Origin: a virus
DNA length: 64,000 nt
Strand: one strand, 5' to 3'
IMG/VR virus record: IMGVR_UViG_3300028920_000029
Span: 1-64,000 of that record
The notes under the pieces: model-generated
Told to the model about the DNA's origin: nothing
Database searches by the model: none
The model's input: only the letters and a program-made list of their open reading frames with translations
In this document: positions 20,187-62,996 of the stretch, one piece after another
Numbering within the stretch: position 1 is the first letter of the stretch
Layout: each line of letters opens with the position of its first letter
Position numbers and translations under genes: made by a program

Positions 20187-20366
20187 ATGAAAAGTTACGT
20201 TAACCTTAAAAAGATAGCTAAGCTTAGTGATGAAGCTCAGCAGTGGATAAGTGATAAGATAGCATTTCTAATTAAAGAAGAAGGACTGACGCAGGAACAG
20301 GCGCAAGGAAAAGCTTACGGAATGGCCAGACAGAAGTTTCCGTCGGTTCCAGAAAAAGGAGAGTAG
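20187..20366 (+). CDS. small protein with N-terminal MKSYVNLKKIA tag
   Basis: Start reassigned to ATG 20187 (GAGGG upstream; follows the stop at 20176). Confidence 0.65.
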   Translation: MKSYVNLKKIAKLSDEAQQWISDKIAFLIKEEGLTQEQAQGKAYGMARQKFPSVPEKGE

Positions 20367-20367
20367 G

Positions 20368-20655
20368 ATGAAGAGCTATGTGAACATGAAGAAAGTTTCA
20401 GGAGTTGTACCAGGAGTACCTGATGGAACTGGGCCTTATGGAAGAGGAATGGGTCCTGGTGGTGGAAGGGCAGACGGTTCTGGATTACAGAATGGTCCTA
20501 AAACTAATGTAAATAAAAAGAAAGTACCTGGTGTTCCTGACGGAACAGGCCCAGGAAAGGATAGTCCAGCATGTCCGTACAATACTGACAGCGCCGATTA
20601 TGCCAAAGGATATGAGGATGGGCTTGCTGCTGGTAAGTCCAAGAAGGAGGACTAA
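20368..20655 (+). CDS. MKSYVNMKKVS-tagged Gly/Pro-rich protein with two VPGVPDGTGP repeats (DUF5320-related motif)
   Basis: AGGAG RBS; repeated DGTGP. Confidence 0.6.
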   Translation: MKSYVNMKKVSGVVPGVPDGTGPYGRGMGPGGGRADGSGLQNGPKTNVNKKKVPGVPDGTGPGKDSPACPYNTDSADYAKGYEDGLAAGKSKKED

Positions 20656-20657
20656 CG

Positions 20658-20864
20658 ATGCCAAATTTAGACGGAACTGGTCCAAGAGGAGAAGGTCCTA
20701 GAACAGGAAGAGGTATGGGAAATTGTACTATTCCAGGACAAGGAGTATATAGTGCGGGTTTTGGAAGAGGTCGTGGAGGAGTTGGAAGAGGTTTAGGTAG
20801 AGGAAGAGGCAACGGCTGTGGTATGCAGAGAAGAAATCGTTTTGGAAGGTCACAAGGAGAGTAA
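20658..20864 (+). CDS. DUF5320-family protein
   Basis: MPNLDGTGPRGEGPRTGRGMGNC...GFGRGRGG matches the family pattern as I recall it. Confidence 0.8.
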   Translation: MPNLDGTGPRGEGPRTGRGMGNCTIPGQGVYSAGFGRGRGGVGRGLGRGRGNGCGMQRRNRFGRSQGE

Positions 20865-20865
20865 G

Positions 20866-21261
20866 TTGGGATCATTTAATGACACTTTAGGTTTGATTAA
20901 GTATATAAAGACTGACGATGAGGGACACAATTGTCCTATATGTATGAGTCAGCTTATGTATATGTATGATGGAGTATCTGGTTTATTTAAGTGTTTGGAG
21001 TGTGGATACTCCAGGAAGCAGAATAGTGCGTTAGCTGGTCAGCACAGGTATGATCTGCCAGTTACTATTTTATCTGCTCGTTCTTTAAAGAAAGCATGGT
21101 TTGAATTACACCAGCCGATGGATGAGAAGCTTTTTAACATACTCGTTCAGCATGACTGGTCTCCAAACCAAGCTATCAAAGATGTTATAAAGGATTTAAA
21201 TTTGTCCGAGGAGGAATCTTTTCACTTCTTGGAGAAGATTCAGTCCTTAACTAAGGAGTAA
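20866..21261 (+). CDS. Zn-ribbon hypothetical protein
   Basis: TTG 20866 with AGGAG RBS; CPIC...CLECG. Confidence 0.55.
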   Translation: MGSFNDTLGLIKYIKTDDEGHNCPICMSQLMYMYDGVSGLFKCLECGYSRKQNSALAGQHRYDLPVTILSARSLKKAWFELHQPMDEKLFNILVQHDWSPNQAIKDVIKDLNLSEEESFHFLEKIQSLTKE

Positions 21262-21265
21262 TCGT

Positions 21266-22806: not shown

Positions 22807-22809
22807 TAT

Positions 22810-22989
22810 ATGGACAAGTATACTTTGTTGAAGAATAGATTAGATACCATTTGTTCTAAGATAGCTGACAAAGAAGTCGCTAGTGAGTTAAGTATATTAT
22901 TCTCTCATATCTTTACAGAGGTAGAGAAGCGAGAGAAAGAGTTGAATAAAGAGATAAAAAAATTAAAAAAAGAGGTGGGCAAGCAATGA
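22810..22989 (+). CDS. small coiled-coil protein (59 aa, not in ORF track)
   Basis: MDKYTLLKNRLDTICSKIAD...KKEVGKQ*; fills the gap, with ATGA overlap into the next gene. Confidence 0.55.
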   Translation: MDKYTLLKNRLDTICSKIADKEVASELSILFSHIFTEVEKREKELNKEIKKLKKEVGKQ

Positions 22990-24419: not shown

Positions 24420-24430
24420 GGTGGTAGACT

Positions 24431-25111: not shown

Positions 25112-25125
25112 GAAGGAGGAGGCTA

Positions 25126-26426: not shown

Positions 26427-26428
26427 TT

Positions 26429-26704: not shown

Positions 26705-26711
26705 GGATTTA

Positions 26712-40537: not shown

Positions 40538-42271
40538 GTGATTGTTGAGCAGGTTGATCCACTCAGGTTTGTAGAGGAACACTTTACATTACAGGGAAAG
40601 CCATTTATTTTACTAGATGATACCCCAGACAATGCTAGGCATTATTTGCAAGGTATGTATAATACTATTGTCTTTAGGGCACCAGTACTAAAGAAACCCA
40701 TAATTATTGTTAAGGGTCGTCAGGTTGAGATGACAACTACAATGAATAACCTAGTGGCATACTATTTAGCCAACAATAAGTTCTTTGATATTTTGTACAC
40801 GTTTCCTAAAGGGGACCAGGCTAAGCGTTTTTCTGATACAAGGTTTGATCCGTTACTTAGGTATATGAGCGCTGCAGATATACTTCCAAGACTTAAAGAC
40901 GGTACTTATAATAAATCAGTTAAGCAGTTTGCTAATGGTTCCACGTTGTTTATTTATGGTGCGGCGGATAAAGGTGATAACATTCGAAGTATTGCTGCGC
41001 AGATGCTTATAAAGGATGAGTATCAGGATATGGATAAGGCCGTAGAGGAAACGATAGATGAAACATTAACTCACTCGAAGTATAAGCTAAACATATCTTT
41101 AGGTACGCCAAAGTATACGGCCACGAGATTTGAGGAGAGATGGAAACAATCTAATATGATGTACTACAATTTGTTTTGTGAGTCTTGTGGTACACCTTTC
41201 GTATTAACCATGGATAGAATGGTTAAGGAGCATATAGTTAGGTGCCCTAAATGTAAGCATGACGCTGATAAGAGATTACTTATTCCTAACGGTAAGTGGA
41301 TGCACCACGGAGAGAAGGACGCCGACTATTTAGGATTTCACTTATCTCAGCTATACGTACCTTATATAACACTTGAGGAGTTACAAAGGAAAATAAAGCA
41401 GCGTGAGCAGGAAGGGGCCGACGTAGAGCGGTATATTAAGAACGAAATATTAGGGGAGTTTTATAGTGGTATTAGGCAGCAGCCCGACAGAAACGTTATA
41501 AGACGGGCGTTTAATAGGGAGCTACCGTATGATGTGTTTATTCCTATGCATATTAGGGTATATATGGGAATTGATTGGGGTGGTTGGAATTCTATTGACA
41601 ACAACCCAGAAAGCAGCTATACTGTAGTTAGTATAGGAGCGTTTGATAAGTTTGGTAATTTGAGAGTAAACTACATAGAAGTTATAGATGAAAAGGATGA
41701 GATGAAGCAGGTGGATAGAGTATCGCAGCTTATAGATAAGTATCACGTATATCTAGCGGTAGCCGACAAAGGTTATGGTAAAGTAAAGAATCATCACCTT
41801 AAGGTTAAGTGGGGTAATAGATTTAAGGATTGTAAGTATCTACAAGGTAGTGCTGGTACGTTATATAAAGAAGGAGATAATGGTACTATTATGATAAACA
41901 GGGATTATTCATTAGAGGAACTATATTCGTCTATGGGTAATGGTAATATGCAGATTCCGCATAACGATCGTACAGAGTGGATCATAGAGCATTTTCTTAA
42001 TCATGAGATTATGGTTGAGGAACACGGAGGAACCGTGTACAAAAGATTTGTTAAGGTTGACGGGCATAATAAAAGAACTGACGCTGTACATTCTATAAAC
42101 TATTTAAGGATAGCAGCGTTTAAAGATAATAAAGCTTATGACCACTCACCGCTTATAGGGGCAGATAAGAAAAGGCATCAGGCCCCGAGGCCTAGGTTAT
42201 CTGGATCGGCTTTGGAAGGGCCGACTATGATGAAAATCCATAAACAGTTAAAAGCTATGAGAAGGTCCTAA
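40538..42271 (+). CDS. terL: terminase large subunit (lambda GpA-like)
   Basis: KGRQVEMTT, TFP..AKRFS, IKDEYQD (Walker B), GTPK, Zn ribbon CESC..CPKC, GFHLSQLY, MGIDWGG nuclease motif. Confidence 0.9.
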   Translation: MIVEQVDPLRFVEEHFTLQGKPFILLDDTPDNARHYLQGMYNTIVFRAPVLKKPIIIVKGRQVEMTTTMNNLVAYYLANNKFFDILYTFPKGDQAKRFSDTRFDPLLRYMSAADILPRLKDGTYNKSVKQFANGSTLFIYGAADKGDNIRSIAAQMLIKDEYQDMDKAVEETIDETLTHSKYKLNISLGTPKYTATRFEERWKQSNMMYYNLFCESCGTPFVLTMDRMVKEHIVRCPKCKHDADKRLLIPNGKWMHHGEKDADYLGFHLSQLYVPYITLEELQRKIKQREQEGADVERYIKNEILGEFYSGIRQQPDRNVIRRAFNRELPYDVFIPMHIRVYMGIDWGGWNSIDNNPESSYTVVSIGAFDKFGNLRVNYIEVIDEKDEMKQVDRVSQLIDKYHVYLAVADKGYGKVKNHHLKVKWGNRFKDCKYLQGSAGTLYKEGDNGTIMINRDYSLEELYSSMGNGNMQIPHNDRTEWIIEHFLNHEIMVEEHGGTVYKRFVKVDGHNKRTDAVHSINYLRIAAFKDNKAYDHSPLIGADKKRHQAPRPRLSGSALEGPTMMKIHKQLKAMRRS

Positions 42272-48091: not shown

Positions 48092-48265
48092 ATGTCATTT
48101 AAAAAGATCGGGGATTCAACACTAACAAAGGTAATCAAAGAGGATGATGGGGAAGATAAGGTTATGTTAGTGTGCCCTAAATGTGGAGTTAGATACTCTT
48201 CATCAACCTGCCCAAATTGTGACGGAGGATCCAAAAAGGATGGACGCGAAAGCAAAAGCAAATAA
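48092..48265 (+). CDS. small Zn-ribbon protein (57 aa, not in track)
   Basis: GGGAG RBS; CPKCG...CPNCDG. Confidence 0.6.
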   Translation: MSFKKIGDSTLTKVIKEDDGEDKVMLVCPKCGVRYSSSTCPNCDGGSKKDGRESKSK

Positions 48266-50735
48266 GGTTTTGGAGTACGTAGAAACAGCCCCTAAGACGC
48301 CTACCTCAGAAGAGGTAGCAACTCTTAACCAGGCTAACGCTGAGAAGCGCGCCGAGTTTACCAACGTATTAATAGATAATATTAAGAACGGGTATGTTTC
48401 CTACGAGGACGCAGTTAAACGCGCCAAGAATTACTCCAAAAATCCTGATGACGCAAGCGTTATACTTGCCAGGATTAGCGAATACGAGTTTCCTATGCAG
48501 CGTTCAGCTAGCGAGAAATCTAAATCGGAGGTTGAGAATATGGATCCTATTGCAGAGAATCTGAATGTTCTTGCTAAAAGGTTTCCCAACTGGTCCAGGT
48601 GTCTTGGAGAAGTCCTGAAAGATGAAGGATGGATTAAAGATAGCTGGAACATGGGTACTGGAGAGCAAGCCCCGCCCGATAATACTATCGAGCAGGTGAA
48701 GAAAGAAGAAGACAACAGAATGAAGTCACAAACAAAGGAAGGTGAATCCCAGATGAAAGACAACGAGAAGAAGAAAGAAGAGCATCTTAGGGCTGACGAC
48801 AAGTCTCCTAAGAAAGAAGCAGCTGACAAGAAAGCCTGGAATTTAGGTACAGGAGATGCAGTTGATTCTAAGAAGTGGGACAAGAACGTAGACAAAGAAG
48901 AAGAGAAGAGAAAAGGCGCCGAGATTAAGGAAGGCGAAAAGGTAATGAAAGAGAACGAAAAGAAAAGAGAAGAGTACCTAAGGGCTGGATCCGAGCAGTG
49001 GAAAGTTACACTTGCTAAGGATGAGAAGAACGTTAGAAAATCAGCCTGGGAGATCAGGGATACAAAAGATGGAGACCTTGTAGTTAGGGCAACCATTGAT
49101 GACATCACTGATGGTAACGAAAAGTTTACTGATGAAGCTATTGCAGAAGCTACTTCAGAAGACTTCGGAAACCTTATCACAGAAAATCTTGGAGAGCACG
49201 GCTTGGAAGCTGTTGCTAAAACACTTCTTGGTGACGACCTTACCAAGTATGCTATGGCAGAAGAAGGTTCAATTGATCAGTCCAACAAGGACACATCAAT
49301 GTTTAACGTAAAAAACTATGGTGCTACCCAGGGTAAGGGTGGAAAGGACATAGATTTTGGTAAGACAGAAGTTAAAGAAGGCGGAGAAGCAGGTAAGCAC
49401 GTTGATGCAGAAAACAAAGTATCAATGGAAAAGATCGCTTCTCAGTACTTTGCATACAGGGGTATCTTTGCTGACCTTAAGGATACAGTTTCAGAGTTTG
49501 CTAAAAAGGCTGAATCAAAGTCAGTTAGCGAGCTCGTTAAGAAAGCAGAAGATATGCTTGACGGCGTTAAGACAATGATAGACGAAGGAGCTCCAGAAGG
49601 AGATATTATAGAGCCATTAGCTGATGCAGGTTCTTCACTTAATCAGCTTAATGACATCTCATCTCTGATCGCAGAAGCTAAGGGTATGACTGACGACCCA
49701 GCTTTGGCTGAGCTTCTTGATAAAATAGAGGCTGCAGCTGCTCCAGCAGCAGACGTAGCTATAGAAGGAGAAGTAGAAATAGAATCATCTGACGCTCCTG
49801 CAGAGGAAGAAGCTTCTGAAGAAGAGAAGGAAGAAAAGGAAGAGGAAGAAGTAGACGAAACAGTTGAAGCAGCAAACTCACTGAAGAACAAACTCAAAAA
49901 GATGGCTGCTGGTAAAGACTCAAAAGACTATGACATTCCTCAGACTCACAACATTCAGAAAGATTTCCACGGCGGAGAAAAAGGAATACAGCAGGATGGA
50001 GCTAAGTTCCATAACATATGGGAAGTAGCAAAAGAAATAGACGCTATCGGCGGAAAGAAAGCTGCTGGTAAGCTGTCATCCATGCTTGCAAAGATAAAGA
50101 AAATCGCAGAAGAAAAGGGCGTAGATCCTAAGAAGTACTTCGATTCAATATTCGGAGATCCTAAAGCTACAAAAGAGTACCTAGCACCTAACTCAGTTGA
50201 CGGAGTTATGAGCGAATGGAACGCAGCTACAAAGGACAGCACTTCACAGTCTTACGCTAACTTAATAACAAAAGTAAAGAAAGCATATTGGGCAGCCCAG
50301 GACATGGTTAAGAGGGGTATGCTTAAAGAATCAAAAGAAGAGATCGATTCTCAGGTTGATAGGTTCATAAACATGGACGAAAAGAACATGGAGAACTATC
50401 TTGAAAGCCTGGAGAAGCTCTCAGCTTCCATCGATTTTGAAGATGGAAGGATCAAAGTAGCTGTTATAGACCCAGCAGAAGACAAGTTTGTTGTTAGAGG
50501 ATTTGTTGATGGTGTTCCTGTAGCAAGGTTTACTAAGGAAGACCTTAACATCTCTGGCAAGGTAACTAGAACTGCACTGAGAAGGTCAGCGGCTCTTACA
50601 AAAACAGCTCTTGAAAACGGAATGTTTGACGAAGTTTTGGCAGACGACGACGCTCTTGAATCAGTAGGCGAAACGCTTGATGGTATGAACGTTGGCGTGG
50701 AAGAAACCAAACTTACAAACATAAACGATTTTTAA
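48240..50735 (+). CDS. prohead scaffold/core-like protein
   Basis: Very acidic, helical, immediately upstream of the capsid genes; internal repeat (SWNMGTGE.../AWNLGTGD...). Start reassigned to ATG 48240. Confidence 0.6.
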   Translation: MDAKAKANKVLEYVETAPKTPTSEEVATLNQANAEKRAEFTNVLIDNIKNGYVSYEDAVKRAKNYSKNPDDASVILARISEYEFPMQRSASEKSKSEVENMDPIAENLNVLAKRFPNWSRCLGEVLKDEGWIKDSWNMGTGEQAPPDNTIEQVKKEEDNRMKSQTKEGESQMKDNEKKKEEHLRADDKSPKKEAADKKAWNLGTGDAVDSKKWDKNVDKEEEKRKGAEIKEGEKVMKENEKKREEYLRAGSEQWKVTLAKDEKNVRKSAWEIRDTKDGDLVVRATIDDITDGNEKFTDEAIAEATSEDFGNLITENLGEHGLEAVAKTLLGDDLTKYAMAEEGSIDQSNKDTSMFNVKNYGATQGKGGKDIDFGKTEVKEGGEAGKHVDAENKVSMEKIASQYFAYRGIFADLKDTVSEFAKKAESKSVSELVKKAEDMLDGVKTMIDEGAPEGDIIEPLADAGSSLNQLNDISSLIAEAKGMTDDPALAELLDKIEAAAAPAADVAIEGEVEIESSDAPAEEEASEEEKEEKEEEEVDETVEAANSLKNKLKKMAAGKDSKDYDIPQTHNIQKDFHGGEKGIQQDGAKFHNIWEVAKEIDAIGGKKAAGKLSSMLAKIKKIAEEKGVDPKKYFDSIFGDPKATKEYLAPNSVDGVMSEWNAATKDSTSQSYANLITKVKKAYWAAQDMVKRGMLKESKEEIDSQVDRFINMDEKNMENYLESLEKLSASIDFEDGRIKVAVIDPAEDKFVVRGFVDGVPVARFTKEDLNISGKVTRTALRRSAALTKTALENGMFDEVLADDDALESVGETLDGMNVGVEETKLTNINDF

Positions 50736-51767: not shown

Positions 51768-52796
51768 ATGGAAATAATTAACAAGAAAAACTCACTCGAC
51801 AAAAAGGCTAGCGTTAGCTTCGGCGACGACGGCCACATTAACGCCTCCGACCGAACAGACGCGATTAAAAGGGTTGCCAAGTACTTAAAAGCTGGCGACG
51901 AAGGTTCATATGATGAGAAGGTGTCTAACCTCTTTACCGCAGAAGAGCAGACACAGTTAACGAACAGATTTGCTTCACAGAATACAAGGTACGTAATTGG
52001 TCAGGCAATGGCTTCACCTCTTAAAACATTCTTAGAATATAAGGGTGTTATGAGAAGAGCGCTTAGGGTCGATCCTCTCGCCCCTGGTGCGCTGCCTGTG
52101 TACGACAGGGATACTGAGGAAATCTCAGCAGACGTCCTTGCAGCACAGTCTTCAGTAGATCAGACAAGGGTAATCGGCGACAGGATATACGTTCCAGTAT
52201 TTGAAATCGCTGCATATCCTACTGTTAAACTGAGGGAAATCAAGATCAGAAGGTTCAACATGATTGACCGTATCCAGGTTAGGACAAGGCAGTTCATGCA
52301 GGAATCAGAAGATGCGACAATCATCAACCTTATTGATACAGCTTCAACAAGAGACAACACCGAGTTGACTGTTGACACATCTGACTCAGGAAACGGTCTC
52401 GGCTACATCAAGAGGCTCGACCTTGTTAAGTTGGCTCGACAGATCACAAGGCACGACCTGTTCGCAGTTTCTTACTTCATGTCAATATACCGCTACAGCG
52501 ATATAGAAATGTGGGGAAGAGACGAGCTCGATATTCTGACACAGAAACAGATTATCGACACAGGCTTGCTGGCAACACTGCACGGTAAGAATATCTACGT
52601 AACCAAGAAAATTGAGTACGATACGATATACTGTACCTCAGACCCTGACTACGTTGGAATTTTCCCAGTGTACCAGGACATCGAGGTAATCCCTGCTGAC
52701 ATACCTTACCAGACATCGTTTGGCTGGGTATTCACAGAGCTTATAGGTGCCGCGATTTTCAATGGAAAAGGTGTTGCAAAGACAACTATTTCCTAA
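51768..52796 (+). CDS. major capsid protein (HK97 fold)
   Basis: QAMASPLKTFLEYKGVMRRALRVDPLAPGALPVYDRD, VPVFEIAAYP, GWVFTELIG; size, position and high-expression-like codon use. Confidence 0.85.
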   Translation: MEIINKKNSLDKKASVSFGDDGHINASDRTDAIKRVAKYLKAGDEGSYDEKVSNLFTAEEQTQLTNRFASQNTRYVIGQAMASPLKTFLEYKGVMRRALRVDPLAPGALPVYDRDTEEISADVLAAQSSVDQTRVIGDRIYVPVFEIAAYPTVKLREIKIRRFNMIDRIQVRTRQFMQESEDATIINLIDTASTRDNTELTVDTSDSGNGLGYIKRLDLVKLARQITRHDLFAVSYFMSIYRYSDIEMWGRDELDILTQKQIIDTGLLATLHGKNIYVTKKIEYDTIYCTSDPDYVGIFPVYQDIEVIPADIPYQTSFGWVFTELIGAAIFNGKGVAKTTIS

Positions 52797-53795: not shown

Positions 53796-54617
53796 ATGGC
53801 CTTACCTAAACCTACCGATTTTACAGGTACTTATGAGCCCTTAGCCTATGACAGGTTTTCCGCCAATCTTTTGTGGACTCCCGTAGATGGCGCGGATGAG
53901 TACTGGATTTACAGAGACTTAGATAAGATAGTAGTAGAGCCTCCCTTTGAGACTACTGTATACAACAACCAGGAATATGTTATCTATAGGGATACTGCTG
54001 CGTGGACCAACGCGCAGCCTCTGGATTGTTTCTTTTGGGTACAGGCAGTAGAAGGCCCAGATGCTACAGGTAACTACGAAGAGGGAGACCAGACCGACGC
54101 CCTGTCTCTTATCCATCCATTTGTTATAAGGATTATAGAAGAGGCCAGGTCTATGATAGGAGACGACTTTAGGATCTTTGGTAACATAGCTTCCACTGGT
54201 ACTGACCTACTTGAACAGGTAAGCGCTTATAACTATAAGGTGGCTGTGGAGCAGGCTTTATCCGACATCAACTCTACTCCTACTCCTACGGCGTATAACT
54301 ATGGTACCTTCCCCGCAATGTGGAAGAACCTAATAACCGTGGGTACCTTGGTGTGGATGCTGCCCAGACTTATATTATTCGAGAAAGCTAAGGCTATGCA
54401 GTTTCAGGATCAGGGGCAGGAGTGGACTCCACCCGATCTATCAGAGTCCCTTAAGGGATTGCTCGATATGTATAAAGATATATATGACGACAGGCGAGTG
54501 GCTATTAAACATAACGTGAGGCCTATGCCTAAGGCTGTGGGAAGTCTTCGTGCTCTTTTCATATCACCACAGTTGCTCAAATGGCGCCATGTGCCCACAG
54601 GAAGGCCTTATTTTTAA
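53796..54617 (+). CDS. head-tail adaptor/neck-like protein
   Basis: Position after MCP; FN3-like N-terminus (LLWTPVDGADEYWIYR); ALSDINSTPTPT...F.DQG motif. Confidence 0.5.
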   Translation: MALPKPTDFTGTYEPLAYDRFSANLLWTPVDGADEYWIYRDLDKIVVEPPFETTVYNNQEYVIYRDTAAWTNAQPLDCFFWVQAVEGPDATGNYEEGDQTDALSLIHPFVIRIIEEARSMIGDDFRIFGNIASTGTDLLEQVSAYNYKVAVEQALSDINSTPTPTAYNYGTFPAMWKNLITVGTLVWMLPRLILFEKAKAMQFQDQGQEWTPPDLSESLKGLLDMYKDIYDDRRVAIKHNVRPMPKAVGSLRALFISPQLLKWRHVPTGRPYF

Positions 54618-54740: not shown

Positions 54741-55751
54741 ATGGAAAAGAGAAAACGTGGAAAGAAAGTTACGGTAGTATGCGACGCTTGTGGTAAGGAG
54801 TTCACTAAGCCACCTAGCCTCGTGAAATCACGAAACTATTGTAACCGAGAATGTAAGGCGAAGGGAAACTCAATGCTCTTTGATCAGGAACCAGAGAGGC
54901 GTAAGTTGGCAGCTCAGAAAACTAAGGAACAGCTTGCAACCAAGGGCCACCCCAGTATTGGTAGGCACCATAACGCTGAAACCAAGATTAAGATAAGTGA
55001 AAAGCGCAAAGCCTTTTATCAAACTGAGGAAGGTAAAGAAGCCAGGACTAAGATATCCGAGCAGCGTAGGGCCAGCGCTGGTAACTATCATCACTCCGAT
55101 GAAACCATCGAGAAGATACGAGCCAAGAAGCTAGAGCGTGATAAGGACCCAAGCTACCAGGACAAGATTAACGACTCACTAGAAGAAAAGCGAAAGGACC
55201 CAGAGTACCATAAGAACCTTAGTGAAGGGGTTAAGCGTTTCCATGCTAGTCCAGAAGGACATGAGGTAGCCAAGCGTAAGAGTATTAAGATGAGACTAAT
55301 AAAAAAATCGTTCTATAAAACTCCTGAAGGTAAGCTGGTTAGGGGGAAATTAAGTAGTCTCATGTCTGATAAAATAGTTTCAGGAGAAATAAAGCCCAAT
55401 AGTCATGGGCACTTCGGTATACGCGCGGATCTTAACGAAGTCTTTAGGTCCAACTTAGAAGCTAACTACGCCAGGATACTTAAGTACAAAGGTACCTCAT
55501 ATGAATATGAGAATACGACATTTAAACTTAGTACTGGGCAGACTTACACACCAGACTTTTACTTACCAGATACTGACGAATATGTAGAACTAAAAGGATA
55601 TTATAAGGCAGGAGAAAGACTTAAGTACGATATGTTTAAAAAGGAGTACCCCAACGTGAAGTGGAGAATTATACTACAGACATCACAGGAGTGGGAAGAC
55701 TTAAGGAGTAAGTACAAACCCTTAATCCCACTATGGGAAGGAGTAAAATGA
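54741..55751 (+). CDS. free-standing homing-type endonuclease: Zn finger + NUMOD3 repeats + PD-(D/E)xK nuclease
   Basis: CDACGKEF..YCNREC; GRHHNAETKIKISE, HHSDETIEKIR; RSNLEANYA..YEYE..YTPDFYLP..VELKGY. Confidence 0.8.
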   Translation: MEKRKRGKKVTVVCDACGKEFTKPPSLVKSRNYCNRECKAKGNSMLFDQEPERRKLAAQKTKEQLATKGHPSIGRHHNAETKIKISEKRKAFYQTEEGKEARTKISEQRRASAGNYHHSDETIEKIRAKKLERDKDPSYQDKINDSLEEKRKDPEYHKNLSEGVKRFHASPEGHEVAKRKSIKMRLIKKSFYKTPEGKLVRGKLSSLMSDKIVSGEIKPNSHGHFGIRADLNEVFRSNLEANYARILKYKGTSYEYENTTFKLSTGQTYTPDFYLPDTDEYVELKGYYKAGERLKYDMFKKEYPNVKWRIILQTSQEWEDLRSKYKPLIPLWEGVK

Positions 55752-56146
55752 AAAGCTACGTTAACTTAAAAAAGTTAGGATCAGATGTGTTATCCCAACT
55801 TAAAGATGAAAATAAAAAGCAGCTGTATAAAGATGCAGTTAAGGCGCTGCCACTTTTATCTAAGTTTGAGCTCCACCCGCCCATTAGTCCTGGTTACTAT
55901 GATATAATACTTACATTAGACACATCAGGGTTACTTCAGAGTACGGCTACAGCCATAGTTAACAAGATTTTAGATGCTGGTCAGGAGTTATTTGATAAAC
56001 GTATAGTGGATATAGACGGTGCAGTGAGTTTTACTGGTGGTAGACTATGGTTGTTTGGTCAGGGAAAAGACAGCTTTATGTCGGTTATTAACCAGGGCGC
56101 CAAAATTGACACTATAGACGTAAGTATAGGAGAAGTAATAAAATAA
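55748..56146 (+). CDS. MKSYVNLKKLG-tagged protein carrying one PxL(S/R)KF-family domain
   Basis: ATG 55748 with AAGGAG RBS; ALPLLSKF..LTLDTSG. Confidence 0.65.
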   Translation: MKSYVNLKKLGSDVLSQLKDENKKQLYKDAVKALPLLSKFELHPPISPGYYDIILTLDTSGLLQSTATAIVNKILDAGQELFDKRIVDIDGAVSFTGGRLWLFGQGKDSFMSVINQGAKIDTIDVSIGEVIK

Positions 56147-56167
56147 AGCTTATAGGAGAGAAAGGTA

Positions 56168-57991
56168 GTGGAAATAGATAACAAAGCTACAGAAGAGCAA
56201 GGTTTAGAGTTGGCGTATAGACTAATTCCTTTTCTACGGAAGTTTACTTACAAGAAATTTTCTCCTAGGTCTATGACGCTACACTGGACTTTGGACGTAT
56301 CAAAAATGTCCAGGCAGTTTATTATTAGTATAATGAAAAAACTAGCTGAGCTGCATAATATCGAAGATTTAAATTATAGACCTTCTAAAAGGATGCTAAA
56401 TTGTTTTTTGCGAGATGAGCACGGACGTGGAATAACTAATAACTTTGTTACTCCTCATTCGATAGAACACACAGTAGCTACGGAGCCTAATATTCCCACG
56501 CTTATAACCGAAGAGCTTGCGCTTAATAGCGATGATATGGTTAAGAAATCTAAAAGCCTCGTTAACTTAAAGAAAGCAGCCAAAGACGGGGTGTTAGAAG
56601 AAATATATTCGATTCTTCCAGAGTTACGAAAGTTTTCTATGTTTCGGTATTTTGGTTCGGAAGCCAACCCATATACAGATTTTAAACTTAATGTGGAGGG
56701 TTGGTCTAGGACTGCTATAATAGGTGTGATGAAGCTCATAAGGCATTCTGGGTTTGTGGGTAAGCTACGAGCGGCGGGCAGTGGTGAGTTAATTAGCTCT
56801 TGGTATAACGACGAAAGCTTAAACATAGCCCTAGCGAACCCAAATATTTATCCCTTGTCCATATCTGTAAGGATATATGACATATCTATTCGTCCCACGC
56901 AAGCAGGAAGCCTCGTTAACTTAAAGAAAGTATCTACAGCTGACGGTAAATGGGAACTTAACTATATACTTAGTGTAGTCCCAGAGCTAAGCAAGTTTAA
57001 CATAAGTGCTCCTATACAAGTATATAACGGAGACCTGGTTCAGTTTAAGTTTAGTTTGGGTGCTGGGCCGCTCAGTAACGTTACTGTAGCTACCTTGCTA
57101 CGTAATATCTATAAAAAACTTATTGAGAACGCGAGGAATAATAAGCCTATACGGAATACTTATGCGGACATGTCCATAGAACTAAGTCCTCAACTTAAAG
57201 ATACGTCGGTTTTGGAAGATACCTACCCTGCGCTTGGTGAGGTAGTAGCTCAGGCCGAAAGAGGTAACATAGCTATACTTGCGATGTATATTATGACTCC
57301 CTCTAAAGAGTACCGAGATGGCGAACCAGAAAAAAGGAACCGACCTCTGCGGGACTATACGGATGCTAAGTCCTGCGTTAACTTAAAAAGAATATCAGCA
57401 GAAGATGAAAAGATGAATAACATACTTAGATATAAGGTTATGCAGCTTAGAAATGATAAGGATATAGAAGCTTATATTCCAGTGTATTATAAGAAGATAA
57501 TAGATAAGTTTAGGAAGGGTGAGCACCTGCAGCCCCCAGAAATCATGGGGTCCATTAAGTCTATCAACGACGCGTTAAAATCGTGGAGGGATAGCAAAGA
57601 GCACTACAGAAAGATGCACGGGAGTTACGTTAACTTAAAAAAGATAGCTGAAGATAAGCTGGACAAGTTTTGTCCGTCTTGTGGTATGATGGTTGACAGG
57701 TTGTACCCAGTTATTGGTAAGGAAAAGATATGCTATGATTGTTACAAGAAGATGCTTAGGGACCGTAAGAAGAAAGCTGGAAGGTTTGAAAGTGATAAAG
57801 AGTTGGAGGATGTTAAGGAACTCTTTGCTTACTTTGAGAAGCAGCCCTATCCATGGAACGAAAGGGCCGAAGCTATAGCAAAGAAGCATGATTACTATGG
57901 TACTCCGTTATCCATAGTTAAACGGATGTTAGTAAACATACAAAAGGAACAGCAGGGAGTAGATCAATTTCCAACTAAGGAGGATAAGTAA
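56168..57991 (+). CDS. modular polyprotein-like ORF: three PxL(S/R)KF domains, further domains and a Zn finger, separated by four SxVNLK(K/R) linkers
   Basis: Linkers at 56555, 56909, 57371, 57623; CPSC..CYDC. Confidence 0.65.
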   Translation: MEIDNKATEEQGLELAYRLIPFLRKFTYKKFSPRSMTLHWTLDVSKMSRQFIISIMKKLAELHNIEDLNYRPSKRMLNCFLRDEHGRGITNNFVTPHSIEHTVATEPNIPTLITEELALNSDDMVKKSKSLVNLKKAAKDGVLEEIYSILPELRKFSMFRYFGSEANPYTDFKLNVEGWSRTAIIGVMKLIRHSGFVGKLRAAGSGELISSWYNDESLNIALANPNIYPLSISVRIYDISIRPTQAGSLVNLKKVSTADGKWELNYILSVVPELSKFNISAPIQVYNGDLVQFKFSLGAGPLSNVTVATLLRNIYKKLIENARNNKPIRNTYADMSIELSPQLKDTSVLEDTYPALGEVVAQAERGNIAILAMYIMTPSKEYRDGEPEKRNRPLRDYTDAKSCVNLKRISAEDEKMNNILRYKVMQLRNDKDIEAYIPVYYKKIIDKFRKGEHLQPPEIMGSIKSINDALKSWRDSKEHYRKMHGSYVNLKKIAEDKLDKFCPSCGMMVDRLYPVIGKEKICYDCYKKMLRDRKKKAGRFESDKELEDVKELFAYFEKQPYPWNERAEAIAKKHDYYGTPLSIVKRMLVNIQKEQQGVDQFPTKEDK

Positions 57992-58161: not shown

Positions 58162-58268
58162 AGATACTTAAATATATTGCGTTTGGTTTTTGGATATTAG
58201 TAGCAATAGTTATATACATAGTCTGCGCAATATGGGACGGTATTAAGAGATTGTTTGGGAGGATATAG
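58158..58268 (+). CDS. small membrane peptide (36 aa, not in track)
   Basis: ATGA overlap; MKILKYIAFGFWILVAIVIYIVCAIWDGIKRLFGRI. Confidence 0.5.
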   Translation: MKILKYIAFGFWILVAIVIYIVCAIWDGIKRLFGRI

Positions 58269-58594: not shown

Positions 58595-58862
58595 GTTTGC
58601 GCAGGAATGGTTTGATAAGATACTTGAAGCTACAGAGAGGTTGTCTAAGTCTGGGCAAAGAAAACTGTTTAAGACTGTGCTGGCTATGCTGTTAGTTTTT
58701 ATCCTGTGCATACTATTTATTGTAGTAGCTCACGATAAAGACTTTTTTCTTCAAGGAATACAAGCATTCCTGACGGCTATCTGTGTGTTGGCTGGAGTAT
58801 ATAGTGTGGCTAACTCAGTTGAGCATGCCACTGATGGAGGTAAGAAAAAGAATGGCAAGTAA
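58554..58862 (+). CDS. holin-like two-TM membrane protein
   Basis: RKLF + TM1; TM2 ending LAGVYSVANSVEH; basic tail. Confidence 0.5.
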   Translation: MLQLLKFLFVGKDKFAQEWFDKILEATERLSKSGQRKLFKTVLAMLLVFILCILFIVVAHDKDFFLQGIQAFLTAICVLAGVYSVANSVEHATDGGKKKNGK

Positions 58863-59250
58863 TCCAGAACCATATACTAAAGACCAGATAGTGGAATACA
58901 TAGTATCTTATCTTCCTAGTCTACGTAAGTTTGACTTATATAGCTTTGATGAGGTTCAGCCAAATAAGATGACCACTTTAGTGTTTAGGTTAGATGTATC
59001 TAAGTTTAATATATCTACGAGGGTAAAGCTAATTTACAACTTGGCTGACGCTGCTAAGGCTGTTAACGATACAGATGGCGCGTCTATTAGTTTTGACTCG
59101 CCTCTGTTTAAAAGGCTTGATGCTAACGGAGAAGACCTTTCGACGTCCTCTCGGTTCGTATTAAGGCAAGACGGGCATAGTGTGGTAGAAGAAAAGGCTG
59201 CAGACCCAAAGTTTCACTACATCGAAATGACGGTATTTTATTATGGTTGA
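58852..59250 (+). CDS. single PxL(S/R)KF-family domain protein (no tag)
   Basis: ATG 58852 with GGAGG upstream; YLPSLRKF..FRLDVSKF. Confidence 0.6.
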   Translation: MASNPEPYTKDQIVEYIVSYLPSLRKFDLYSFDEVQPNKMTTLVFRLDVSKFNISTRVKLIYNLADAAKAVNDTDGASISFDSPLFKRLDANGEDLSTSSRFVLRQDGHSVVEEKAADPKFHYIEMTVFYYG

Positions 59251-59351
59251 GGTGCAAATAGTTGAGTTTACTTGTAAGAATAATGTATACTATTACTAAG
59301 CGGACTAAAGAGCTTTACCTTCGGTACCGCTATGCTTAAAGGAGGTATGAT

Positions 59352-60221
59352 ATGTTTATAAAGACTGCTGATTGTTCTGTTGTAGACGTCTTAGATACCA
59401 GGAAAGCTGGGTCTATCTTTGATGAGATAGTTACCAACTCCGAGATAGCTAAGGCTTCTACGCTGGACGAGAGTGATATAAGGCGTCAAGGTTATAATAG
59501 GTTTAGGGCTATAGCCGAGAAACGTTCTGATCGTTTGGCTATAGCAACCAGAGCCATCTCAGCTTATGAAACTCACTCGTTTAACAAGAACGGTGATGCC
59601 TTTGAGAGGGATCAACTTGAGAAATTTCATAAGACGTTTATACTTAAGCCGCATCTTTGGGACCACGATTTATCAATAGGTTCAGTTAGGGGTATAATAG
59701 CTGACGCAAGTTGGAATCCAAAGGAAGACTATGTTGAGACGCTTATCTTTATTGATAGGGAACAGTTTCCTAAGTATGCTTCTAACGTGGAGAAGGGGTA
59801 CATAAATAGTTTTTCTATGGGAGTAGAAGTTAAGGAGGCTGAGTGTTCTATTTGTCACAATATCGCGCGGACACCCGCGGAATTATGTATTCACGCAGAA
59901 AGATACAAAGGACTTTACGTTCAGGGTAAGAAGTGTTTTGAGTTTAACAGGGACCTGGAGTTTATTGAGCAGAGTGCTGTTGCATCTCCAGCAGACCCAG
60001 ACTCACATACTTTGTACATACTGGCGCACGCAAAGGCTGGTCAGCATAAAGAGATAGAGAATCTTAGGAAGCTTGCGTCAATACTTGATAGCTATACAGA
60101 GGAAGACAAGCGTAGGTTTAACGATGAGTACTACCTTATCACATCTTCTGTTGATAGGTTGGCTACCAGAATAGCAAAGGATCTTGGGATATCGTTTGGG
60201 GATCCGAGGCGAGGTGAGTAA
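59352..60221 (+). CDS. prohead maturation protease-like protein (with Zn-binding insert)
   Basis: NKNGDAF, HLWDHD (His), RGIIADA, SFSMG (Ser), CSIC..C.H, FIEQSAVASPAD; herpes/HK97-type protease pattern. Confidence 0.7.
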   Translation: MFIKTADCSVVDVLDTRKAGSIFDEIVTNSEIAKASTLDESDIRRQGYNRFRAIAEKRSDRLAIATRAISAYETHSFNKNGDAFERDQLEKFHKTFILKPHLWDHDLSIGSVRGIIADASWNPKEDYVETLIFIDREQFPKYASNVEKGYINSFSMGVEVKEAECSICHNIARTPAELCIHAERYKGLYVQGKKCFEFNRDLEFIEQSAVASPADPDSHTLYILAHAKAGQHKEIENLRKLASILDSYTEEDKRRFNDEYYLITSSVDRLATRIAKDLGISFGDPRRGE

Positions 60222-60955
60222 TGGGGCACATATATAAATTCACAAAACATGTACTTGCATACTCACCATATTTTAATGAGGCTGAGAGAGTATACTTTGA
60301 TACATTATCAAAGGGTATTACTGGGTCATACCTAGTACTTGCTAAGTACGGTTTAGGTGGAGAAGCCAACAAAGATCTGAAGGATTTGTATAGGCACCTT
60401 AGTTGGTATAACCTTAAGAAGAACGACAAAGATTACAGGCCCACCGATTTAGGTATGCTGTTTAGTCAAATAGCTACGGTAGTGGATGAGTCTTTAGTAA
60501 AGCACGGAATAGTTAACAAGCAAGGACTTGATGAGTTTTTACCCAGGGATATATTAAGTAAGCTTCCGAGCACTCCCATGCAGCAGAACCCAAAGAATTA
60601 CATACCAGAAGAGCAAATGATTAAGGATACATCATTACGATCCGCGCCAGCTGAGAAGGATAAGGGAGTACTACAGTCATTGGAGGAACAAGCTATGGAT
60701 AGAAACAAAAAGTGGAAGGAGTATAGAGAGCACCAGGATACACCGCCAACCCCAGTTAGGGCCAGTCTTATAGGAAACATTCTTAAGAAAGGCGAGGCAG
60801 TAACACAGGATATAGGTAAGCTTCCTATGAGTAGTTCAGATGATATGAAGGAAGTAGCAAAGAAGACTAAGGATAACATCACAAAGAACAAGCAACTTCT
60901 TGACGAGGCCGACGCCTTAGCTGAAGATATGGAAGAGTTAGATAAGATTACATAA
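60221..60955 (+). CDS. hypothetical protein
   Basis: Translationally coupled ORF. Confidence 0.5.
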   Translation: MGHIYKFTKHVLAYSPYFNEAERVYFDTLSKGITGSYLVLAKYGLGGEANKDLKDLYRHLSWYNLKKNDKDYRPTDLGMLFSQIATVVDESLVKHGIVNKQGLDEFLPRDILSKLPSTPMQQNPKNYIPEEQMIKDTSLRSAPAEKDKGVLQSLEEQAMDRNKKWKEYREHQDTPPTPVRASLIGNILKKGEAVTQDIGKLPMSSSDDMKEVAKKTKDNITKNKQLLDEADALAEDMEELDKIT

Positions 60956-60967
60956 GGAGTAACCTTA

Positions 60968-61909
60968 ATGGCATTTTATGAGTTGCACCGCTACGTTAGA
61001 AGGGTAGTAGTACAAGAGCTGCAGTTGTTGGTGAACGATCATCCAATGTACACCACAGATAGGGCTGACGACACTAAGTTTCAGACGTCCCCTACTAAGG
61101 TTATGGAACGATATAACTTTGACGGCAGACAGTACCCAGCTATAGTAGTTACCACTACTGAGTCTAACGAACAGCGTTTGTCTATGGACAGGCTAATAAC
61201 TGAGGCTTACGGGCACTCAAGAGCAGCTACTATGATGTCATATGTAACTCCTAAAGTGGTAGATGATTCAGAGTACACTGGCACATACTCTGATGCAGTG
61301 TACTTACTAGAGTACGCACAGACATTTGCTGAGGATGATGAGGATATTAAGCTTAAGAAATTCTCGGTAGCTGCAGTAGACGATGACCCCACAGGAGCAT
61401 CAGGAGATGTTGAGTGGTTTGATATTGTACCAGATGAAAGGCGCACAGATATAATAGATGGTGTAGAAATACATATAGGTTCTTTTAATGACATACGTCC
61501 TGGCAACCAAATATACATAGAGACGTTTGAGGATAACAGATACCTGGGAGATATATTCGGGAGCAGGTTTGATATATCTATGAACATATCTGTGTATGCG
61601 CAGACGCAGTACGAAACTGAAGAGTTACTTGATATGGTAAATTCGTGGTTCACATACTATTTACCACATCAATTATACTTTAAGCACAGCATCAACGCCA
61701 AAACAGTTAACACTAGTGGAGCAGTGGAAAAGGATGAGCGATACGGAGAAGAGGCGTTTACTGGTAACCTTACAGTTACGTTCTCTGTAGAACACCAGTT
61801 CTTTAACCCAGTAAATATAATGACGTCTTATCAGTTATGGCTAGCGCTTAGAGAGCAGGTAGACTCTACGACTGGGCAGATACTTTTACCTATAGAGATT
61901 GAGGATTAG
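60968..61909 (+). CDS. tail terminator/neck-like protein
   Basis: QYPAIVV, ISVYAQTQYETEELLD, LTVTFSVE pattern. Confidence 0.5.
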   Translation: MAFYELHRYVRRVVVQELQLLVNDHPMYTTDRADDTKFQTSPTKVMERYNFDGRQYPAIVVTTTESNEQRLSMDRLITEAYGHSRAATMMSYVTPKVVDDSEYTGTYSDAVYLLEYAQTFAEDDEDIKLKKFSVAAVDDDPTGASGDVEWFDIVPDERRTDIIDGVEIHIGSFNDIRPGNQIYIETFEDNRYLGDIFGSRFDISMNISVYAQTQYETEELLDMVNSWFTYYLPHQLYFKHSINAKTVNTSGAVEKDERYGEEAFTGNLTVTFSVEHQFFNPVNIMTSYQLWLALREQVDSTTGQILLPIEIED

Positions 61910-61917
61910 GAGATACT

Positions 61918-62691
61918 ATGGCATATTTAAGAAACATACCAAGCAGCGGTGACCCGTTTGAGAAAGGTAAGAATGGATTTATACCATCTAATCCTACCGA
62001 CGCTGGGGTGGAGCAGAGGTTTGATAGCTTGACAGATAGGTTCCAACCTAAGGAACAGTATACAAGAAAGATATACCAGGTAGCAACTGGAGATGAGAAC
62101 GTACTGCACGAACATATTGAAAGGCTTAGCAGGATGATAGAAGCCAGAGGCGAGCTTGTAACGCTTGTTAAACGTAAACTTGATGGTGAAAGATGTAACT
62201 GCTATGATACAGTTATGGATGTTGTTAGGCGTAAGTATTGCTTGCAGTGTTATGGTACTAGGATAAAGAATGGTTATGAGCTATTTAATAATACTAATAG
62301 AGATGATGGTAAGATATACATAGCGGCTCCGTTTGCTGAAGCTAGGATAGATTGGGAAGACCACGGACGAGTACAGACGGAGGAGCTAACTTATTGGACT
62401 TTGCCGTATACCCCGTTAGAAAACGGAAGCACTACGTATTCTTACGACTGGTTAATAAGATATAATAATGATGGTACTGAGTTAGGAAGGTATTATATAC
62501 ATAATGTTAAACCTTCTAGGAGTGTAGATAACTATGTTACGTATCAACACTTTACGGCTGCGTTAGCAACAAGACCTACTTACGATCATGAAGGAACTAT
62601 GGTAAGGCGAGGCGATTTGATATATGAAGTGGATACTAGTACGTTAGATGTAGTTGAGGGAAACTTAGAAAAAGGAGCTGACGAACGATGA
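61918..62691 (+). CDS. head-closure/neck-like protein with Cys cluster
   Basis: GELVTLVKR..GERCNC..CLQCYGT..GY. Confidence 0.5.
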   Translation: MAYLRNIPSSGDPFEKGKNGFIPSNPTDAGVEQRFDSLTDRFQPKEQYTRKIYQVATGDENVLHEHIERLSRMIEARGELVTLVKRKLDGERCNCYDTVMDVVRRKYCLQCYGTRIKNGYELFNNTNRDDGKIYIAAPFAEARIDWEDHGRVQTEELTYWTLPYTPLENGSTTYSYDWLIRYNNDGTELGRYYIHNVKPSRSVDNYVTYQHFTAALATRPTYDHEGTMVRRGDLIYEVDTSTLDVVEGNLEKGADER

Positions 62692-62996
62692 AATCAGTAG
62701 TTAACTTATACAAGATAGCTAAGTGGGAAGCTGAGCATGAAGCTGCTCTTAAAGAAGATGCAATGAGAGAGAAGGGAGAACAAATAGAGGGAGGGCTTGC
62801 CGATAATATGACATTGGAAGACATAGCTAATAGGCATGGAGTAAACATGGGTAAGATAGTGTCACAAATAAATAAAGGTATCCGTGTTGAGTATGAGCAC
62901 ACGAATGATGCTAAACAAGCTATGGAGATAGCTAAGGATCATCTGGTTGAGGATTCAGAATACTACACAAAATTAGAAATGATAGAAAATCACTAA
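62688..62996 (+). CDS. DUF5661-like protein with N-terminal MKSVVNLYKIA tag
   Basis: GGLAD...KGIRVEYEHT..AMEIAKDHLVED..YYTKL. Confidence 0.75.
   Translation: MKSVVNLYKIAKWEAEHEAALKEDAMREKGEQIEGGLADNMTLEDIANRHGVNMGKIVSQINKGIRVEYEHTNDAKQAMEIAKDHLVEDSEYYTKLEMIENH

What the first reader, a model, noticed from the sequence alone, without database searches (positions are those of the whole stretch)
20187..62720. Shared SxVNLKKx(A/S/G) peptide tag on unrelated proteins: candidate capsid-targeting/cargo-loading system
Seen: four otherwise unrelated ORFs begin MKSYVNLKKIA (20187), MKSYVNMKKVS (20368), MKSYVNLKKLG (55748) and MKSVVNLYKIA (62688). The same motif occurs four more times inside ORF 56168-57991. 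Synonymous codon differences (CTT/TTA, AGT/AGC/TCA, GTT/GTG) point to selection on the peptide. Known: T4 internal proteins carry a ~10-aa N-terminal capsid-targeting sequence (MKTYQEFIAE type) that the prohead protease removes. Inference: this is an analogous but distinct tag that loads diverse cargo into the head for delivery to the host.
Basis: partly seen in the sequence, partly recalled or inferred. Interest (0 to 1): 0.85.

Follow-up and report, generated by a model that had tools for sequence, protein, structure and literature searches.

The report
Head-module address tag on phage proteins
An uncultured 173-kb phage and its relatives put the same nine-residue peptide in front of many otherwise unrelated small proteins encoded next to the head-maturation protease, which most likely marks them for loading into, or cutting inside, the capsid, as phage T4's capsid-targeting sequence does; nobody has yet observed the loading or the cutting.

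Summary
S-x-V-N-[LM]-x-[KR] occurs exactly 8 times in the six-frame translation of the whole 173,362-bp genome. All 8 are in + strand ORFs: 4 directly follow a start codon and 4 sit inside ORF 56168-57991.

Five related phage contigs (protease 54-62% identical) carry the same peptide in a sister dialect, M-S-[FY]-[VI]-N-F-[KR]-[KR]-[LIM]-[ASG]. Their codons vary freely, so selection acts on the peptide. In a complete 150-kb relative all 5 copies lie within 5 kb around the prohead protease gene.

The tagged genes fill a hypervariable slot between conserved head genes, and only the tag is shared. Several tagged proteins are multi-tag polyproteins. The neighbouring protease has the T4 gp21 fold.

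The tag has no Glu, so it is not the T4 or phiKZ cleavage rule. The major capsid protein lacks it.

In relatives, one tagged cargo is a half-ferritin of the type that encapsulins carry.

Best reading (about 0.6): a new dialect of capsid-targeting or protease-processing tag. Packaging, cleavage and delivery to the host are untested.

This scan has already found T4-like (hydrophobic-x-Glu) tags on other phages. This one differs in chemistry and lineage.

The parts
20187..20366 (+). Tagged 59-aa protein (MKSYVNLKKIA...). The tag core S..A is 20193-20219. It has no family match.
   Evidence: A GAGGG ribosome-binding site lies 8 nt upstream.
20368..20655 (+). Tagged 95-aa Gly/Pro-rich protein (MKSYVNMKKVS...), tag core 20374-20400. 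A decayed second tag TNVNKKKVP (20503-20529) precedes a repeat of PGVPDGTGP.
20658..20864 (+). Untagged DUF5320 protein. Its N-terminus (DGTGPRGEGPRTGRGMG) looks like the repeat unit of the tagged neighbour.
   Evidence: PF17253, E 3.4e-10; the likeness to the neighbour is by eye
48183..50735 (+). 850-aa acidic scaffold-like protein, conserved in relatives. After its acidic tract it has a semi-conserved tag-like segment (ANSLKNKLKKMAAG; relatives have AALRKLGAD and EALKKLGAD).
51768..52796 (+). Major capsid protein. It has no tag. Its first 52 residues are absent from the phage G homologue.
   Evidence: (phrog_2522, 2.6e-54)
53796..54617 (+). Conserved 273-aa head-module protein that marks the upstream edge of the variable cargo slot in all relatives.
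55748..56146 (+). Tagged 132-aa protein (MKSYVNLKKLG...), tag core 55754-55780. It is a member of the LPxLxKF paralogue family. Its start overlaps the stop of the upstream HNH gene (ATGA).
56168..57991 (+). 607-aa polyprotein: three paralogous modules, a helical module and a Zn-ribbon module. Four internal tags sit at the module borders (56555-56581, 56909-56935, 57371-57397, 57623-57649).
   Evidence: No homologue of similar length was found.
58852..59250 (+). Untagged paralogue of the cargo module (MASNPEPYTKD...).
59352..60221 (+). Prohead (head maturation) protease with the T4 gp21 / herpesvirus assemblin fold.
   Evidence: phrog_18299, 1.1e-13; annotated prohead proteases of phage G, E3 and Pupper; 5jbl_A Z 8.1, 123 residues aligned, rmsd 3.5; VZV protease Z 5.7
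62688..62996 (+). Tagged 102-aa DUF5661 protein (MKSVVNLYKIA...), tag core 62694-62720. It is a lineage-specific insertion between two conserved structural genes.
   Evidence: PF18905, 2.3e-13; absent at this place in G001, G002 and L004; the G001 DUF5661 protein is untagged

Best explanation
The nine-residue peptide S-[YFL]-[VI]-N-[LFM]-[KR]-[KR]-[ILVM]-[ASG] is a head-assembly address tag. It is used by a clade of uncultured large phages distantly related to Bacillus phage G.

The tag sits at the N-terminus, or between modules, of small fast-evolving proteins. These proteins are encoded inside the head-morphogenesis operon beside a gp21-fold prohead protease. The tag most likely docks them onto the assembling procapsid interior (scaffold core, shell or protease) and marks where the protease separates tag and modules. 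This would parallel the T4 capsid targeting sequence, but with different chemistry: basic and without Glu.

Shown here:
- the motif and its exclusivity within whole genomes;
- its conservation as a peptide;
- its linkage to the protease and head genes;
- the turnover of the cargo;
- the multi-tag polyproteins;
- the fold of the protease.

Inferred only: binding to the procapsid, cleavage and its position, presence in virions, and any delivery to the host.
For: 1. Exclusivity. There are 8 copies in 173 kb and no others in six frames. In the complete relative G002 there are 5 copies in 150 kb, all at 104.6-109.4 kb around the protease gene (108450-109340), against 0.05 expected, P about 2.5e-9.

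2. Peptide-level selection. 26 copies from five sources keep S (24/26), an aromatic or Leu, V/I, N, F/L/M, K/R, K/R, an aliphatic residue and a small residue. Conservation stops abruptly after the small residue. Codons vary freely.

3. Head-module linkage. In G000, G001, G002, L004, L009 and L015 the tagged genes fill the slot between a conserved 273-aa gene and the protease, or directly follow the protease. L015 has 9 strict and 3 degenerate copies in the 6 kb upstream of its protease.

4. Cargo turnover. BLASTP between the cargo slots of the relatives finds almost nothing, while the flanking head genes are 42-70% identical. This is the T4 internal-protein pattern (PMC3012670).

5. Polyproteins. 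Proteins with 2-4 tags at module borders occur in G000, G001, G002, L004, L015 and the metagenome protein P0033.

6. Protease. PHROG head maturation protease, with T4 gp21 as the best structural match, Z 8.1.

7. A tag-like L-[KR]-K-[LMF]-[GA] segment is semi-conserved in the scaffold-like protein.

8. One cargo domain is preceded by different tag dialects in different lineages: SFVNFKK, SYVNLKR, MWLKRTA, TWLKKAE. This is expected if the tag co-evolves with each lineage's assembly machinery.

9. No multi-copy cluster of the tag exists in 596 Gb of prokaryote genomes. In IMG/VR such clusters exist only in these relatives.
Against: - There is no direct evidence of packaging or cleavage.
- The tag lacks the Glu that the characterised gp21-type proteases need at the cut site (T4 and phiKZ from own knowledge; SPN3US in PMC10052503), and no Glu lies at a fixed distance after it.
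- The capsid protein carries no copy, unlike T4 gp23, which is cut at the same rule as the internal proteins.
- Two paralogous cargo modules in this genome have no tag.
- A degenerate copy ends a G001 protein exactly at its C-terminus, where a cut after the tag would be pointless.
- Two of the tagged genes (20187 and 20368) lie 35 kb from the protease, among genes of unknown role.
- Within G000 five copies share 11 nt of DNA, so some of the local similarity comes from recent duplication.
Confidence: 0.6

Rival explanations
1. The tag is an encapsulin-style loading peptide. It binds a pocket on the inner face of the HK97-fold capsid protein, is not removed, and holds cargo such as a ferritin-like ferroxidase inside the shell rather than preparing it for injection.
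For: - Tagged cargo in relatives is a half-ferritin. Its profile matches encapsulated ferritins (6suw 3.7e-5, 6sv1 6.3e-5, 5da5 7.9e-5), EncC (9.2e-5) and EncB (2.4e-4). It also matches Pfam EncFtn-like, below the cut-off.
- Encapsulin targeting peptides are likewise short, with spaced hydrophobic residues followed by Lys or Arg: GSLxIGSLK, LTVGSLRR (PMC10960027).
- The G000 internal copy GSLVNLKK looks similar by eye.
- A degenerate copy at a C-terminus in G001 would suit a pure docking peptide.
- The capsid protein has no such site to be cut.
Against: - Family 1 encapsulin peptides are C-terminal (PMC10960027). These tags are N-terminal or internal.
- The likeness of the peptides is by eye only.
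- The ferritin-like cargo is absent from this genome.
- A dedicated protease is always next door.
- Multi-tag polyproteins suggest processing.
Confidence: 0.14
2. The motif is only the cutting site of the prohead protease, or of another protease. It serves as a linker that lets polyproteins be cut into modules, and it has no addressing role. Cargo would enter the head by other means, or not at all.
For: - Internal copies lie at module borders in at least six proteins.
- Conservation ends sharply at a small residue, as at many protease P1 positions.
- A tag-like segment occurs in the scaffold-like protein, a typical protease substrate.
Against: - Half or more of the copies are at the very N-terminus, directly after Met. 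A cut there would release only 9-11 residues, which is hard to explain without an addressing role. It is exactly the T4 CTS arrangement.
- The capsid protein lacks the site.
Confidence: 0.14
3. The tag is read by machinery unrelated to the capsid: a ClpXP-type N-terminal degradation signal, a chaperone signal, or the recognition leader of a modifying enzyme.
For: - G000 encodes a ClpP-like protease at 164772-165287(-), and phage G encodes ClpXP (preprint 10.1101/2024.12.16.628780).
- An earlier finding of this scan (e1-127136) showed that a shared phage N-terminal tag can belong to a radical-SAM enzyme rather than to the capsid.
Against: - The complete relative G002 has the tags but no ClpP homologue.
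- Internal and C-terminal copies do not fit an N-terminal degradation signal.
- The only gene that always accompanies the tags is the prohead protease.
- No modifying enzyme recurs near them.
Confidence: 0.07
4. The shared sequence is a by-product of cassette duplication or recombination at the DNA level and has no function of its own.
For: GTTAACTTAAA is shared, wobble positions included, by the five copies between 55.7 and 57.6 kb.
Against: - Across relatives the peptide is kept while the codons differ.
- A matrix built from the relatives alone recovers the G000 copies.
- Every copy is in frame, in an ORF and on the coding strand.
Confidence: 0.03

Closest known systems
Phage T4 capsid targeting sequence (CTS; MKTYQEFIAE type) on internal proteins IPI, IPII, IPIII and Alt, removed by prohead protease gp21
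   Same: - A tag of about 10 residues at the very N-terminus of otherwise unrelated small proteins.
- The genes form hypervariable loci in which only the tag is conserved (PMC3012670).
- A gp21-fold protease is encoded in the same head module.
- Both tags begin M-K-[ST]-Y in this genome.
   Different: - The sequence is basic (K-K) and has no Glu, whereas the T4 tag ends in the gp21 site hydrophobic-x-Glu.
- The tag also occurs inside polyproteins.
- The capsid protein has no matching site.
- The lineage is related to phage G, not to T4.
- Packaging and cleavage are unproven here.
N-terminal propeptides of head and ejection proteins of giant phages phiKZ, 201phi2-1 and SPN3US, cut by gp175 / gp245
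   Same: Many head proteins carry N-terminal propeptides, some with several sites per protein, and the propeptides are thought to guide proteins into the prohead (PMC10052503).
   Different: Those sites follow a small-residue-x-Glu rule (own knowledge; PMC10052503 gives the SPN3US logo), and the propeptides are long and dissimilar to each other. Here a single nine-residue peptide is repeated nearly verbatim.
Family 1 encapsulin targeting peptides (GSLxIGSLK, LTVGSLRR, GGDLGIRK)
   Same: Short peptides with spaced hydrophobic residues and a terminal Lys or Arg address unrelated cargo to the inside of an HK97-fold shell (PMC10960027). The relatives' tagged cargo includes an encapsulated-ferritin-like domain.
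   Different: Encapsulin peptides are C-terminal, are not cut, and bind the shell directly. Here the tags are N-terminal or internal, in tailed phages with a maturation protease. Shell binding was not tested.
N-terminal M-K-R-L-I-K-K-[SA] / x-R-L-K-K-[VT]-[SA] motif of Bacillus phage G proteins (seen here; not found in the literature searched)
   Same: Phage G has the closest cultured homologues of this phage's capsid protein and protease. At least 14 of its proteins begin with a basic L-K-K-x-[SA] motif, and 4 of them are encoded within 12 kb of its protease gp19.
   Different: In phage G the motif is scattered over the whole 498-kb genome. The sequences differ: there is no S-aromatic-V-N. 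Whether the two motifs are homologous or functionally equivalent is unknown.

Membership tests
T4-type capsid targeting sequence system | A conserved peptide of about 10 residues at the N-terminus of otherwise unrelated proteins | tested here: met
   4 N-terminal copies in G000 and at least 15 in relatives
T4-type capsid targeting sequence system | The tag ends in the protease site hydrophobic-x-Glu | tested here: not met
   The conserved block ends K/R-K/R-aliphatic-small, and no Glu lies at a fixed position
T4-type capsid targeting sequence system | The phage encodes a gp21-family prohead protease | tested here: met
   phrog_18299 1.1e-13; 5jbl_A Z 8.1, rmsd 3.5, 123 residues aligned. The model has only pLDDT 63, and the Foldseek match is weak, E 0.04.
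T4-type capsid targeting sequence system | Tagged genes form polymorphic loci in which only the tag is conserved | tested here: met
T4-type capsid targeting sequence system | Tagged proteins are packaged in the head and the tag is removed by the protease | not testable with these tools
Encapsulin Family 1 targeting peptide | Located at the C-terminus of the cargo | tested here: not met
   The copies are N-terminal or internal. One degenerate C-terminal copy occurs in G001.
Encapsulin Family 1 targeting peptide | Binds a hydrophobic pocket on the inner face of the shell protein's P-domain | not testable with these tools
Encapsulin Family 1 targeting peptide | Cargo of the ferritin-like, peroxidase or similar classes | tested here: inconclusive
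   An EncFtn-like domain is tagged in relatives but is absent from G000. The G000 cargo is DUF5661, a Gly-rich protein and unknown modules.
ClpX N-terminal degradation signal | Needs a free N-terminus and a ClpXP partner | tested here: not met
   Internal copies exist. The complete relative G002 has the tags but no phage ClpP. Host ClpXP cannot be excluded.

The most novel reading that the evidence does not exclude
The tag is a shell- or core-docking peptive of the same functional kind as encapsulin targeting peptides, used by tailed phages to load a swappable set of proteins into the capsid. In some relatives this set includes an encapsulated-ferritin-type ferroxidase. That would make these phages a living link between phage internal-protein loading and encapsulin cargo loading. 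Basic L-K-K-type tag dialects (this clade, phage G, and the MWLKR group seen in metagenome proteins) would then be a widespread, sequence-predictable address code for phage head cargo that does not depend on the Glu rule of T4.
Probability: 0.2. Interest if true: 0.85.

Novelty: new variant of a known kind. Interest (0 to 1): 0.62.

Why it matters
If the tag loads proteins into the capsid, the whole set of packaged proteins can be read from sequence in a phage clade that nobody has cultured. These proteins are possibly injected, so they are candidates for anti-defence or take-over functions.

It would also show that capsid addressing is not tied to the T4 or phiKZ Glu rule, and so give a second, chemically different tag for packaging foreign proteins into phage heads.

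The ferritin-like cargo in relatives, and the similar basic tags in cultured phage G, make two questions testable. One is how phage internal-protein loading relates to encapsulin cargo loading. The other is what a gp21-fold protease recognises outside the T4 group.

Tried and rejected
The closest relatives (protease 66-79% identical: P0005-P0009) could not be fetched.
Docking of the tag to the protease, capsid protein or scaffold was not tested.

Searches for relatives that found nothing:
- Single-protein search of IMG/VR with the protease. The alignment-based scans worked.
- The exact G000 tag as a DNA pattern in IMG/VR.

Folds and family searches that gave nothing usable:
- The fold of the 607-aa polyprotein failed (pLDDT 35), so I make no statement on whether the tags lie in linkers.
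- The polyprotein has no homologue in phage records or among proteins of similar length.
- The ESM Atlas gave nothing usable for the 132-aa module.
- Pfam and PHROGs gave nothing for the 59-aa, 95-aa and 132-aa proteins or the polyprotein.
- The PDB sequence search with the protease profile found nothing. Only the fold comparison found gp21.
- DUF5661 is unrelated to the ferritin-like domain.

Literature: I found no description of this motif or of a phage G cleavage rule. The phage G proteome table held here was truncated and did not show which tagged proteins are in virions.

Rejected readings:
- A DNA-level element.
- A secretion signal: there is no hydrophobic core and no Cys.
- A promoter or translation enhancer: the internal in-frame copies and free codon variation argue against both.
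- HpaI-site significance of GTTAAC: the site is common, 87 copies in the genome.

Full report
**What is there.** The window is the first 64 kb of a complete 173,362-bp IMG/VR virus record; earlier notes of this scan place it in marine sediment.
- Four open ORFs: 20187 (59 aa), 20368 (95 aa), 55748 (132 aa) and 62688 (102 aa).
- Four lie inside ORF 56168-57991 (607 aa).
- In the six-frame translation of the whole genome, S.VN[LM].[KR] has these eight matches and no others. Shuffles give 1.3.
- Three of the four N-terminal genes start within 4 nt of the upstream gene's stop: 55748 and 62688 overlap it (ATGA) and 20368 follows after 1 nt. All four have Shine-Dalgarno sequences. They are therefore ordinary members of + strand operons.

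**DNA or peptide.** Inside this genome the core is also conserved as DNA. GTTAACTTAAA occurs only in the five copies between 55.7 and 57.6 kb, so those copies are recent duplicates or are homogenised. The decisive evidence comes from relatives.
- An alignment of protease homologues retrieved five distinct related contigs, among them the complete 149,961-bp genome G002 and the 107-kb G001.
- These carry M-S-[FY]-[VI]-N-F-[KR]-[KR]-[LIM]-[ASG].
- 26 strict copies from five sources share S, aromatic or Leu, V/I, N, F/L/M, two basic residues, an aliphatic residue and a small residue. Nothing is conserved after that. Every degenerate codon position varies.
- A weight matrix built only from the relatives ranks 7 of the 8 G000 copies among its 9 best genome-wide hits.
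- The pattern M-S-F-[VI]-N-F-K occurs in several copies per contig only in these relatives among 2.9 million IMG/VR contigs. It occurs only as scattered single hits in 596 Gb of prokaryote genomes.

**Context.**
- ORF 59352-60221 is a head maturation protease. Its closest cultured homologues are phage G gp19 and actinophage prohead proteases. Its model's best structural match is T4 gp21: Z 8.1, 123 residues aligned, rmsd 3.5. Varicella-zoster virus protease follows at Z 5.7. The model is only moderately confident (pLDDT 63).
- The major capsid protein is 51768-52796. The large terminase is 40538-42271.
- Gene order is conserved in all relatives: scaffold-like protein, decoration-like protein, capsid protein, a 273-aa protein, then a variable slot, the protease, and two further conserved genes.
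- The variable slot holds the tagged genes. Its proteins share essentially nothing between relatives except the tag.
- In G002 all five genomic copies lie within 5 kb around the protease (P about 2.5e-9). L015 has nine strict and three degenerate copies in 6 kb.
- In relatives, the conserved genes directly before and after the protease are themselves tagged.
- The tagged DUF5661 gene of G000 is an insertion between two conserved genes. The DUF5661 protein of G001 has no tag. The tag is therefore modular.

**Polyproteins.** ORF 56168-57991 consists of three modules paralogous to the 55748 protein and to the untagged 58852-59250 protein, followed by helical and Zn-ribbon parts. Tags sit at the borders. 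Multi-tag proteins recur in G001, G002, L004, L015 and the metagenome protein P0033. In relatives several internal copies are preceded by Met and an RBS-like stretch, which suggests fused genes. In G000 they are truly internal. The fold of the polyprotein failed.

**Cargo identity.**
- In G000 the cargo is DUF5661, a Gly/Pro-rich protein whose repeat resembles its DUF5320 neighbour by eye, a 59-aa helical protein, and the unknown module family.
- In L004 and G002 a tagged cargo is a two-helix ferritin-like domain. A profile of it matches a bacterioferritin (2.7e-12) and then a run of encapsulated ferritins, EncC and EncB (4e-5 to 2e-4).
- The same domain in other metagenome proteins is preceded by other dialects: SYVNLKR, MWLKRTA, TWLKKAE, MWLTRKA.
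- This domain is absent from G000.

**Mechanism.** The closest model is the T4 capsid targeting sequence. There, diverse internal proteins share only a short N-terminal tag that brings them into the scaffolding core (PMC3012670), and gp21 then removes it.

Several features fit here: tag length and position, hypervariable cargo, the gp21-fold protease next door, and multi-site polyproteins. A tag-like L-[KR]-K-[LMF]-[GA] segment is also semi-conserved in the scaffold-like protein, a natural protease substrate.

Other features do not fit. There is no Glu, no site in the capsid protein, and one degenerate copy sits at a C-terminus. I therefore cannot say whether the tag is cut, or on which side. 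A cut before Ser would give polyprotein products the same free N-terminus as the monocistronic proteins of the relatives, where Met-Ser should lose its Met. A cut after the small residue would mimic T4.

The encapsulin-like reading is a real alternative: a docking peptide that is kept, with cargo acting inside the shell. Encapsulin peptides have a similar make-up (PMC10960027).

A ClpXP signal is unlikely. G000 has a ClpP-like gene, but the complete G002 has none, and internal copies do not fit.

**Phage G.** At least 14 phage G proteins begin M-K-R-L-I-K-K-[SA] or x-R-L-K-K-[VT]-[SA], four of them near its protease. Some are enzymes: a GNAT (2.5e-5), a SLOG domain (2.8e-6) and weak PARP-like matches. 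I found no description of this in print. It may be a sister dialect, which would give a cultured system for testing.

**Novelty and verdict.** This scan has reported T4-like hydrophobic-x-Glu tags in several other phages. The present tag is of the same functional kind but has different chemistry, in a different lineage, with polyproteins and an encapsulin-type cargo in relatives. I rate it a new variant of a known kind, with interest 0.62. Confidence is 0.6 in a head-targeting and/or protease-processing role.

Noticed in passing
whole genome G000 (window 1-64000 included): CCGG is completely absent: 0 sites in 173,362 bp against about 273 expected. Relatives G001 (394 sites) and G002 (109 sites) do not avoid it. 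This suggests strong selection by a CCGG-specific restriction system in this phage's host.
   Followed up: partly
L004:6782-7030; G002 104661-106235 (= L027:5161-6735), residues about 455-512: Relatives encode a tagged two-helix ferritin-like domain whose profile matches encapsulated ferritins, EncB and EncC of encapsulin systems. In G002 it ends a polyprotein in this order: tag, a domain that looks by eye like a nucleotidyltransferase (only a sub-threshold Pfam match), a coiled coil, a second tag, a Gly-rich tract, then the ferritin-like domain.
   Followed up: partly
Bacillus phage G, NC_023719.1 (L036-L060), e.g. 9964, 16061, 17783, 28224, 70971, 81754, 246000, 446715: At least 14 proteins begin with M-K-R-L-I-K-K-[SA] or x-R-L-K-K-[VT]-[SA]. 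They include a GNAT, a SLOG domain and a multigene family with weak PARP-like matches. I found no description of this in the literature searched.
   Followed up: partly
G000:164772-165287 (- strand, outside the window): A ClpP-like protease gene (PF00574, E 4.8e-20). None is present in the complete relative G002.
   Followed up: partly
L015:6619-8556: This relative's prohead protease gene is interrupted by an intein. The protease match is split into 1-180 and 179-282, and protein P0018 carries Hint/intein Pfam domains.
   Followed up: no
window 54741-55751: An HNH / endonuclease-VII-like gene sits between the conserved 273-aa head gene and the cargo slot, and its stop overlaps the first tagged gene's start. 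A homologue occupies the same place in L015.
   Followed up: no
window 51768-51923 (capsid protein residues 1-52): The capsid protein of this clade has a conserved 52-residue N-terminal extension that is absent from the phage G homologue. It may be a short propeptide. It has no tag.
   Followed up: partly
window 11494-18117: A 2,207-aa ORF with no Pfam or PHROG match lies upstream of the first pair of tagged genes.
   Followed up: no
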